Virus record (IMG/VR): IMGVR_UViG_3300031760_000002
Coordinates: 1 to 64,000 of that record
Length of the DNA: 64,000 nt
Source: a virus
Taxonomy: Duplodnaviria; Caudoviricetes
Strand: one strand, 5' to 3'
Each line of letters begins with the position of its first letter. The stretch's first letter is position 1. Below, piece after piece: positions 38,701-39,336 of the stretch. The position numbers and the translations under genes are program-made. Below the pieces are notes generated by a model. It made no database searches and was not told where the DNA came from. It worked only from the letters and a program-made list of their open reading frames with translations.

Positions 38701-39336
38701 CTTGCGGCGTCGGCGCCGCATTTCCTTTACGTATCTGCGCGGAGTTGTTCCTTCCGGCATGCGCCGGATTGCGAAAATCATTCCCGTCTTTACCCCTTCG
38801 GCAATCGTGCCGATTCGTTAGTTCCCGTTCGCAGCCGGCCTTCCCGTTTCCATGGGATTGGAGATCCACAAGTCGGGTCGTACTTCCGGTATGCACCGGA
38901 TTGCAAAACTTTCGAGCGGCGTGGTGTGTCTTCCGTTTAGACAACGGATCGTTAAAATCGCTTGACACCCTCCTTCCGGTATGCACCGGATTGCATGCGA
39001 TACGGACGGCAAACCCGACTTCCGCTACGACAGCGGATTGTTGAACAAAGCGAAAATGACTACAAACCATGATACTTCCATTCCGATAAGCCATCGGATT
39101 GCATTATCGACTTATCCAGGAACTCCTCTTCCGTGCTATGCCACGGACTGCCTAATTAGAACTGTCTCGCTCTACCGCCACGCGGCGTATTACCCCTCCG
39201 GCCGTGTTGAGGCCGGAGGGGCAGTTCTACGCACGCTGCTTCCTATGAACAAATAACGAGGAGATAACCTTCCTAGGCGCCTAGGATTGCTTTGCGTCCA
39301 TTGATGCTCGTACCTTCCGAGCTATGCCTCGGATTT
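38701..39336 (-). CRISPR. non-canonical CRISPR-like array B (12 clear + 1 degenerate hairpin repeats)
   Basis: Repeats start (+) at 38701, 38751, 38796, 38840, 38883, 38930, 38973, 39019, 39080, 39128, (39172), 39269, 39314; period mostly 43-50 nt; unique spacers. Confidence 0.78.

What the first reader, a model, noticed from the sequence alone, without database searches (positions are those of the whole stretch)
39314..39336. First repeat of array B is encoded in the nuclease's last codons and stop
Seen: minus-strand AAA TCC GAG GCA TAG CTCGGAAG encodes K-S-E-A-stop and is also a full hairpin repeat. Established: TnpB omegaRNAs commonly overlap the 3' end of their own gene. Inference: this may be a trace of an omegaRNA-to-array transition, and it supports minus-strand co-transcription of gene and guides.
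Basis: partly seen in the sequence, partly recalled or inferred. Interest (0 to 1): 0.7.

Follow-up and report, generated by a model that had tools for sequence, protein, structure and literature searches.

The report
Nuclease gene ends inside first repeat
In a 177-kb uncultured phage, the last four codons and the stop codon of a Cas12/TnpB-like nuclease gene also form the first of a series of short hairpin repeats that look like a stripped-down CRISPR array; its nearest relative keeps the overlap, so gene and first guide unit must lie on one RNA.

Summary
On the minus strand, 39336-39314 reads K-S-E-A-stop and folds as a 6-bp hairpin (-9.7 kcal/mol) with the TAG in its loop. It has the flanks, stem and spacing of a 20-23 nt hairpin family found only at 36.6-41.3 kb of the 177-kb phage genome, around a 590-aa protein with a TnpB/Cas12 fold.

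The only close homologue with DNA available (L008, 75% protein identity) ends in the same hairpin: 20 of 21 nt are identical while both flanks have diverged. Sixteen of 17 proteins from the two closest lineages end S-E-A.

The omegaRNA-relic reading is not supported:
- The overlap is only the hairpin.
- Synonymous sites in the last 150 nt of the gene are not unusually conserved.
- Distant relatives (about 30% identity, Bacteroidales) carry ordinary 36-nt CRISPR arrays starting at least 200 nt after the gene.

Co-transcription follows logically but was not shown. No RNA data could be obtained and no spacer target was found.

My best reading is that this is the first unit of a minimal, tracr-less, adaptation-less guide array embedded in the effector mRNA, possibly giving feedback. 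The scan noted this stretch before in an overlapping window (e1-5688973) and noted the whole system (e1-5688961, e1-5688971).

The parts
39322..41094 (-). Effector gene, 590 aa (P0001): TnpB/Cas12 fold with an intact RuvC D331-E436-D527 triad and no CxxC zinc ribbon
39314..39336 (-). Unit B1, the finding: hairpin repeat that also encodes K-S-E-A-stop. The stop TAG at 39322-39324 lies in the loop.
   Evidence: the matching hairpin at the gene end in L008 is at 2766-2787
39289..39313 (-). 25-nt unique spacer after B1 (candidate first guide)
   Evidence: No match in its own genome (31), in GenBank phages or in plasmids. Unrelated to the L008 spacers (86).
39269..39288 (-). Unit B2 (stem TCCTAG/CTAGGA)
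   Evidence: 15.7 bits
39191..39223 (-). 13-bp GC-rich hairpin between B2 and the main array. Its core is repeat-like, with CCCC/GGGG flanks and no U-tract.
   Evidence: -29.5 kcal/mol, z -5.8; conserved in L008 2812-2841 (-27.9)
38701..39149 (-). Main part of array B, units B3-B12. The last unit is a second repeat type (stem TGCGGCG/CGCCGCA) and sits 35 nt before the ATG of a 48-aa ORF.
41124..41292 (-). Array A in the 5' leader of the effector gene: three clear units plus a weaker fourth at 41269-41292. The last unit is 29 nt before the ATG.
36615..36813 (-). Array C: five units, starting 3 nt after the stop of ORF 36817-37179 and ending in the convergent gap with the large + strand gene that stops at 36601

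Best explanation
The 23-nt stretch is the first unit of the downstream hairpin-repeat array of a phage-borne Cas12/TnpB-like effector. The effector ORF runs 12 nt into it and stops at the TAG in the hairpin loop.

The arrays look like a minimal, tracr-less guide array. Each unit would be a roughly 20-nt hairpin handle (5' AAU, a 6-7 bp stem, 3' AAG) followed by a unique stretch of about 22-28 nt, with the guide 3' of the handle as in TnpB and Cas12.

Because unit 1 lies inside the coding sequence, the effector mRNA and the first guide unit are one primary transcript. Any cut that releases unit 1 severs the array from the mRNA. If the cut falls 5' of the hairpin, as in Cas12a-type and TnpB processing, the mRNA is left without a stop codon, which would damp effector synthesis once enough protein is made.

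Shown: the sequence and frame; family membership by shape, flanks and spacing; restriction of the family to this locus; compensatory variation of the stems; conservation of the same gene-end hairpin in L008; the TnpB/Cas12 fold with an intact RuvC triad; CRISPR association of distant relatives.

Inferred: the transcribed strand, binding and processing by the effector, guide function of the spacers, and feedback.
For: - Sequence and frame.
- Hairpin energy: -9.7 kcal/mol in both the window and L008.
- Locus restriction: the family occurs only at 36.6-41.3 kb of the 177-kb genome, all units co-oriented with the genes.
- Stems: 160 of 162 pairs are Watson-Crick across 27 units, with all four pair types at position 5. 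Formally, 99.1% of cells are paired and there are 12 double-sided changes against 1.7 in shuffles, 0 of 500 as high.
- Conservation: in L008 (75% identity) the gene ends in the same hairpin, 20 of 21 nt identical, while the preceding roughly 14 nt and the following spacer have diverged.
- Protein ends: 16 of 17 proteins from the two closest lineages end S-E-A although residues just before vary (A/S, R/Q, M/T).
- Spacers: unique, unrelated between window and L008, and 22-30 nt long.
- Protein: AF2 pLDDT 93.9; best Foldseek matches are TnpB, Cas12m2, Cas12f, Cas12p and TranC; D331/E436/D527 are conserved.
- Relatives: 31 of 44 distant loci carry downstream CRISPR arrays on the gene strand.
- Literature: TnpB makes its guide RNA by 5' processing of its own mRNA (PMC10278001). 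A phage Cas12r works with crRNA only, and a single repeat suffices (bioRxiv 10.64898/2026.04.20.719267).
Against: - No RNA evidence at all.
- No spacer target was found in the phage's own genome, GenBank phages or plasmids, nor for three spacers in IMG/VR.
- No Cas1, Cas2 or TnpA in the genome, so the origin of spacers is unexplained.
- B1 scores only 13.4 bits against a model of the other units, which is background level genome-wide.
- B1, B2 and B3 are the most deviant units.
- There are no G-U pairs in 162 stem pairs, and the one A-C mismatch (unit B9) would be G-U on the other strand. The RNA strand is therefore not proven.
- Conservation of the overlap rests on one DNA comparison plus protein ends. 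The P0004-P0007 lineages end differently.
Confidence: 0.55

Rival explanations
1. The hairpins, including this one, are cis-acting RNA elements of a phage operon and not guide scaffolds. They would be stability, processing or attenuation hairpins, or binding sites for translational control. B1 would be the 3' stabiliser or processing site of the nuclease mRNA, and the 'spacers' would be mere linkers.
For: - No target for any spacer.
- No adaptation genes.
- Repeat sequences are degenerate and only the shape is kept.
- The last unit of arrays A and B, and of the L008 upstream array, sits a fixed 27-35 nt before an ATG with the same RBS.
- A much stronger repeat-like GC hairpin follows B1/B2 in both phages.
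Against: - The hairpins occur nowhere else in 177 kb of mostly co-linear operons.
- Twelve tandem units at a 43-48 nt period are hard to justify as stabilisers.
- Linker lengths sit in the guide range and linker content turns over completely between relatives.
- They flank the only RNA-guided-nuclease homologue in the genome, whose relatives are CRISPR-associated.
Confidence: 0.2
2. One reading: the overlap is a relic of an omegaRNA that overlapped the tnpB 3' end. It would mark a lineage caught between omegaRNA and array.
For: - omegaRNA scaffolds lie at the 3' end of tnpB, and TnpB cuts them out of its own mRNA (PMC10278001).
- Arrays of type V systems lie downstream, mimicking the omegaRNA position, and are thought to arise by duplication of omegaRNA segments (PMC10691335).
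- B3 is a near copy of B1, including the TAG-bearing loop, as if array units were copied from the gene-terminal one.
Against: - The overlap is only the 22-nt hairpin. There is no excess synonymous conservation in the last 150 nt of the ORF.
- Distant relatives have canonical 36-nt arrays at least 200 nt downstream with a tracr-like stretch between, so a CRISPR-bearing ancestor is at least as likely.
- No transposon ends, no TnpA, and a single copy.
- Tails differ in the P0004-P0007 lineages.
Confidence: 0.15
3. The units are DNA-level palindromes and the coding overlap is incidental. They would be sites for a recombinase, a transposase or a dimeric DNA-binding protein, or ssDNA hairpins like IS200/IS605 ends or REP elements.
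For: The stems are strictly Watson-Crick with no G-U in 162 pairs. That is what a duplex palindrome would show.
Against: - No Y1 transposase in the genome.
- The flanks are asymmetric and all units share one orientation.
- Loops of 3-7 nt vary freely.
- The units are confined to one locus rather than dispersed.
Confidence: 0.05
4. Chance: B1 merely resembles the repeats and is not a functional unit.
For: The covariance-model score of 13.4 bits is within the genome-wide background.
Against: - It sits exactly 25 nt from B2.
- It is 20/22 identical to B3, with a compensatory swap.
- It is 20/21 conserved in L008 amid diverged flanks.
Confidence: 0.05

Closest known systems
IS200/IS605 TnpB with omegaRNA (e.g. 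ISDra2, AmaTnpB)
   Same: - RuvC nuclease of the same fold.
- The guide-RNA element overlaps the 3' end of the nuclease ORF, with the guide 3' of the scaffold.
- The nuclease mRNA is the guide precursor (PMC10278001).
   Different: - Here the overlapping element is a 22-nt hairpin, not a scaffold of about 100-150 nt, and there is no extended RNA constraint in the ORF end.
- There are many tandem units with different spacers.
- No TnpA, no transposon ends, single copy, and resident in a phage.
- The protein is 590 aa with an enlarged N-terminal lobe.
tracrRNA-free type V CRISPR effectors with hairpin handles (Cas12a, Cas12i, Cas12j, Cas12m, Cas-lambda; phage Cas12r)
   Same: - A single effector with the array on the gene strand.
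- The unit is a hairpin handle followed by the spacer, and spacers are about 20-28 nt.
- Phage-borne examples lack adaptation genes.
- For Cas12r a single repeat plus 18 nt makes a working guide.
- An 18-nt repeat remnant suffices for Cas-delta (PMC12721324).
   Different: - Repeats here are only the roughly 20-nt handle, with no extra repeat sequence.
- Repeat sequence varies from unit to unit, with compensatory stem changes and two repeat types.
- There are three arrays, two of them abutting start codons and one starting inside the effector ORF.
- No sequence-level membership in any named subtype.
Bacteroidales gut relatives of the same protein family (about 30% identity; weak Cas12f / V-U2 / V-U4 model hits)
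   Same: Homologous effector (E 1e-41 to 1e-52 by tblastn) with the array downstream on the same strand.
   Different: They have canonical arrays with 36-nt identical repeats, a 65-66 nt period and a start at least 200 nt after the gene. A tracr-like anti-repeat lies between, and no repeat overlaps the ORF. They also lack about 60 residues of the N-terminal lobe.
TIGR-Tas (tandem interspaced guide RNA arrays of phages and parasitic bacteria)
   Same: A non-CRISPR, adaptation-less tandem guide array next to its effector, found in phages (PMC12045711, abstract seen).
   Different: The Tas effector is a Nop-domain protein, not TnpB/Cas12, and the array units are built differently. The resemblance is in concept only and was not tested here.

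Membership tests
Local hairpin-repeat family (arrays A, B, C) | 5' AA-T and 3' A-AG flanks around a 6-7 bp stem beginning TCC and ending GGA, with a loop of 3-7 nt | tested here: met
   B1 has flanks AA and AG, stem TCCGAG/CTCGGA and a 6-nt loop
Local hairpin-repeat family (arrays A, B, C) | Tandem spacing of 22-30 nt to the next unit, in the same orientation | tested here: met
   25 nt to B2
Local hairpin-repeat family (arrays A, B, C) | Significant score against a covariance model of the other units | tested here: inconclusive
   13.4 bits: E 0.015 within the locus, E 0.21 over window plus L008. Background reaches 15.8 bits elsewhere in the genome.
Type V CRISPR-Cas (Cas12 plus CRISPR array) | Effector with the TnpB/Cas12 RuvC fold and a D-E-D triad | tested here: met
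Type V CRISPR-Cas (Cas12 plus CRISPR array) | Adjacent array of near-identical direct repeats (usually 23-50 nt) with unique spacers of uniform length | tested here: not met
   Repeats are 19-22 nt and differ in sequence; only shape and flanks are kept. Spacers are unique and 22-30 nt apart from one of 40 nt and a 119-nt gap between B2 and B3 that holds the GC hairpin.
Type V CRISPR-Cas (Cas12 plus CRISPR array) | Spacers match foreign or host DNA (protospacers) | tested here: inconclusive
   No match in the phage's own genome, GenBank phages or PLSDB, nor for three spacers in IMG/VR. The host is unknown.
Type V CRISPR-Cas (Cas12 plus CRISPR array) | Processed crRNAs bound by the effector | not testable with these tools
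   No RNA run was listed
IS200/IS605 TnpB-omegaRNA element | Structured omegaRNA scaffold of about 100 nt or more overlapping the ORF 3' end | tested here: not met
   The overlap is 12 nt plus the stop; there is no excess synonymous conservation in the last 150 nt; no Rfam match
IS200/IS605 TnpB-omegaRNA element | Transposon context: TnpA, element ends, multiple copies | tested here: not met
   No Y1 transposase and a single copy of the gene in the genome

The most novel reading that the evidence does not exclude
The phage runs a self-contained guide system with no adaptation genes, in which the repeat is reduced to the roughly 20-nt mature handle and evolves by compensatory change. In this reading the effector mRNA is itself the pre-guide RNA. 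Cutting out the first unit, whose loop holds the stop codon, would turn the mRNA into a non-stop message, giving the effector built-in negative feedback that couples its dosage to guide loading.
Probability: 0.2. Interest if true: 0.8.

Novelty: new variant of a known kind. Interest (0 to 1): 0.55.

Why it matters
Standard CRISPR finders need near-identical repeats of at least about 23 nt, so arrays like these are invisible to them. A conserved unit that shares its nucleotides with the effector's stop codon ties the hairpins to the nuclease gene physically and through evolution.

If the units are guides, three things follow:
- A Cas12/TnpB-type effector can work from a bare 20-nt hairpin.
- Arrays can persist and diversify without Cas1-Cas2.
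- Guide release and effector translation can be coupled through the stop codon.

It would also offer a compact 590-aa effector with a very short handle. If the units are not guides, the locus is still an unexplained, structure-conserved RNA or DNA element family peculiar to one phage lineage.

Tried and rejected
The DNA of close homologues P0002 and P0004-P0007 and of P0010 could not be read, so only their C-terminal residues were used.
- The look-up of sequencing runs: no RNA holder was listed.
- IMG/VR held no relative of the protein. An exact repeat pattern gave only single, scattered matches with no arrays.
- Three spacers had no exact IMG/VR match. Array B against GenBank phages gave only chance matches. 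The whole locus against plasmids gave only chance matches in coding parts. There were no self-targets.
- Rfam: nothing relevant.
- The apparent similarity between spacer B1 and an L008 spacer is not significant (90th percentile of shuffles).
- MAFFT could not align units with different loop lengths, so the model was built from the 21-nt class only.
- TAG recoding was considered and rejected: no suppressor tRNA among the 20 phage tRNAs.
- The neighbouring small ORFs have no Pfam or PHROG family.
- Back-translating the tails of P0004-P0007 and P0171 into possible hairpins was considered and dropped as untestable without DNA.

Full report
THE OBSERVATION

On the minus strand the ORF 39322..41094 (590 aa, P0001) ends L-K-S-E-A-stop. 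The codons AAA TCC GAG GCA TAG occupy 39336-39322 and are followed by CTCGGAAG (39321-39314). Together they form a hairpin with stem TCCGAG/CTCGGA and loop GCATAG, and the stop codon sits in the loop. As RNA it folds at -9.7 kcal/mol, and 1 of 200 shuffles folds as well. The coordinates and reading of the first-stage note are correct.

IS IT A REPEAT UNIT?

A scan of the window and then of the whole 176,839-bp virus record found hairpins with this signature only between 36.6 and 41.3 kb, all in minus-strand orientation. The signature is 5' AA-T, a 6-7 bp stem usually starting TCC and ending GGA, a 3-7 nt loop and 3' A-AG. The units form three clusters:
- Array C, 36615-36813: five units.
- Array B, 38701-39336: twelve units.
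- Array A, 41124-41292: three clear units plus a weaker fourth.

Units are 19-22 nt. Stretches between them are unique and mostly 22-30 nt. The exceptions are one of 40 nt and a 119-nt gap between B2 and B3 that holds a strong GC hairpin.

Across 27 units (20 from the window, 7 from L008), 160 of 162 stem pairs are Watson-Crick. Position 5 shows all four pair types. On a model-fitted alignment of the window's units:
- 99.1% of cells pair.
- There are 12 double-sided changes against 1.7 +/- 1.1 in shuffles, 0 of 500 as high.
- No pair varies on one side only.

So the shape is conserved while the sequence is not.

B1 has the family's flanks, stem and loop size. It lies 25 nt before B2 and is 20/22 identical to B3, from which it differs by one compensatory pair swap.

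There is an honest caveat. A covariance model built from 11 units of the 21-nt class scores B1 at 13.4 bits. That is E 0.015 within the locus and E 0.21 over window plus L008. Unrelated places elsewhere in the genome reach 15.8 bits. The model alone therefore does not establish membership; position and conservation do.

HOMOLOGUES

The protein has few close relatives:
- P0002, 93% identity.
- P0003, 75%.
- P0004, 72%.
- P0005-P0007, 56-65%.
- A step down to about 30% after that.

Only one close relative could be read as DNA, L008, a 2,867-bp metagenome contig that encodes P0003. Its gene ends R-S-E-A-stop in the same hairpin, with an identical stem and a loop that differs at one synonymous position. 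The fold energy is also -9.7 kcal/mol.

In the pairwise alignment the hairpin is 20/21 identical. The roughly 14 nt before it and the 24-25 nt after it are at random-level identity. The last 17 codons are the least conserved part of the protein (53% identity), yet S-E-A-stop is kept.

At the protein level, 16 of 17 members of the two closest 90% clusters end S-E-A. The residues just upstream vary (A/S, R/Q, M/T). One member reads through to ...SEACRKM. The P0004 lineage ends K-N-S, and P0005-P0007 have longer, mutually similar tails. Whether those genes also end in a hairpin cannot be told without DNA.

L008 also has an upstream array, including two units of a second repeat type (stem beginning TGCGG) that occurs once in the window at 38701-38722. 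It carries the same strong GC hairpin after the gene-terminal unit.

WHAT THE PROTEIN IS

- Family models: PHROG 506 'transposase' at 2e-25; NCBIfam guided_TnpB at 7e-12, below its cutoff; a weak N-terminal C2c8 hit; weak PADLOC Cas12f, Cas12u2 and Cas12u4 hits.
- Solved structures by sequence: a profile reaches only ISDra2 TnpB (E 3e-4).
- Predicted structure: an AlphaFold2 model from 76 relatives is confident (pLDDT 93.9, pTM 0.84). Foldseek places it among ISFba1 TnpB, Cas12m2, Cas12f, Cas12p and TranC, with TM 0.45-0.49.
- Catalytic residues: D331, E436 and D527 are invariant or nearly so.
- Family size: a library-wide profile search finds 2,114 relatives at 50% clustering.
- Genome context: no Cas1, Cas2 or Y1 transposase, and only one copy of the gene.

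DISTANT RELATIVES

The roughly 30% relatives come from Prevotellaceae, Paludibacteraceae and other Bacteroidales gut MAGs and from gut metagenomes. In 31 of 44 such loci a canonical CRISPR array follows on the gene strand. It has 36-nt identical repeats, a 65-66 nt period, and starts at least 200 nt after the gene. In L009 the interval holds a stretch complementary to the repeat, which looks tracr-like.

The wider family is therefore CRISPR-associated. In the relatives read here, no repeat was seen to overlap the gene. These proteins also lack about 60 residues of the N-terminal lobe present in the phage clade.

TESTING THE OMEGARNA-RELIC IDEA

If an omegaRNA-like scaffold still overlapped the ORF end, synonymous sites there should be constrained. 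Among codons with identical amino acids in window and L008, the share of identical codons is 0.60 and 0.57 in the last two windows, against 0.53-0.83 elsewhere. Nothing beyond the hairpin itself is constrained.

Combined with the canonical arrays of the distant relatives and the differing tails inside the close clade, the overlap looks like a lineage-specific arrangement. It rests on a functional hairpin rather than being a demonstrable relic.

What remains in favour of the relic idea is analogy. TnpB cuts its guide RNA out of its own mRNA (PMC10278001). Type V arrays lie where omegaRNAs lie and are thought to arise from duplicated omegaRNA segments (PMC10691335). In addition, B3 is a near copy of B1 that includes the TAG-bearing loop.

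HOW IT MOST LIKELY WORKS

All units share the orientation of the surrounding minus-strand genes.
- Array A ends 29 nt before the effector ATG.
- Array B starts inside the ORF and ends 35 nt before the next ATG.
- Array C starts 3 nt after a stop codon.
- No sigma-70-like promoter is predicted on the minus strand within the locus, although the host's promoter type is unknown.

The simplest reading is one polycistronic RNA in which hairpin-plus-spacer units alternate with ORFs. In TnpB and Cas12 systems the guide lies 3' of the scaffold. A hairpin handle of about 20 nt followed by about 20-25 nt is what tracr-less Cas12 effectors carry (established knowledge). For phage Cas12r a single repeat suffices.

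On that reading B1 plus 39313-39289 is the first guide unit, and the effector mRNA is its precursor. A cut 5' of the hairpin would remove the stop codon from the mRNA. A cut 3' of it would leave the mRNA with a terminal hairpin. Either way, guide release and the fate of the mRNA are coupled. None of these steps is shown.

POINTS THAT COUNT AGAINST, OR STAY OPEN

- No RNA data were available.
- No spacer has a match in the phage's own genome, GenBank phages or PLSDB, nor do three spacers in IMG/VR.
- The window and L008 spacers are unrelated. This fits turnover of guides but leaves the source of new spacers unexplained without adaptation genes.
- The stems contain no G-U pair at all. The single A-C mismatch (unit B9) would be a G-U on the plus strand, so a DNA-level palindrome or the opposite RNA strand is not excluded.
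- B1-B3 are the most deviant units. They are set off from the main array by a 13-bp GC hairpin (-29.5 kcal/mol, conserved in L008) whose role is unknown.

COMPARISON WITH KNOWN SYSTEMS AND NOVELTY

The system works like a tracr-less type V CRISPR locus, and in its gene-guide overlap like TnpB-omegaRNA. It meets the effector criterion of type V but fails the criterion of near-identical repeats. It also fails the omegaRNA-scaffold and transposon criteria of IS200/IS605 elements. I found no paper describing a Cas12/TnpB gene that ends inside a repeat of a degenerate hairpin array.

I class the finding as a new variant of a known kind. As a detail of a larger candidate system its own interest is moderate. 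Its main value is that it ties the hairpin family to the effector gene and suggests a testable coupling of translation and guide biogenesis.

Earlier first-stage notes of this scan describe the same stretch (e1-5688973) and the system as a whole (e1-5688961, e1-5688971).

Noticed in passing
window 39191-39223 (-); L008 2812-2841: A 13-bp GC-rich hairpin (-29.5 and -27.9 kcal/mol) separates the gene-terminal unit(s) from the main array in both phages. Its core resembles a repeat stem (TCCGG/CCGGA) with CCCC/GGGG flanks in place of AA/AG, and it has no U-tract. It could be a barrier, a stabiliser or a decoy unit.
   Followed up: partly
window 17736-17757 (-) and 9100-9131 (-): Two solitary matches to the repeat model lie inside minus-strand ORFs, at 20 bits each. 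That is above the maximum of 15.8 bits in the other 100 kb of the genome. Both read C-N-P in frame. They may be chance, or in-gene copies of the hairpin.
   Followed up: partly
window 38701-38722; L008 825-848 and 874-897: A second repeat type has the same AA(A)T and AAG flanks but a TGCGG/CCGCA stem. It is shared by both phages.
   Followed up: partly
window 41095-41144, 38666-38722; L008 959-1005: The last unit of an array sits 27-35 nt before an ATG with the same GAAAGGAAA ribosome-binding stretch. The would-be last 'spacer' is therefore the 5' UTR of the next gene.
   Followed up: no
window 41301-41318 (-) and 41269-41292 (-): A terminator-like hairpin with a T-run lies just upstream of array A. 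It is followed at once by a weak fourth unit (stem TCAGC/GCTGA). A strong terminator-like hairpin lies at 42168-42207 (-).
   Followed up: no
L009 7186-7405 and 7406-7770; 31 of 44 distant loci: Bacteroidales gut relatives of the effector carry canonical arrays of 36-nt repeats with a tracr-like anti-repeat between gene and array. This family gets only weak Cas12f, V-U2 and V-U4 model hits and may be an unnamed type V group.
   Followed up: partly
window 38519-39094 (-): A spurious 191-aa ORF runs through array B and fuses to the real 48-aa gene that starts at 38665. Gene callers may annotate it.
   Followed up: yes
window 39322-41094 vs L008 1006-2778: Synonymous-codon identity is highest in codons 1-30 and 61-153 (about 0.8) and lower (about 0.6) in the RuvC half. 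The reason is unknown.
   Followed up: no
window 36817-38665 (-): Six or seven small minus-strand ORFs between arrays C and B have no Pfam or PHROG family.
   Followed up: partly
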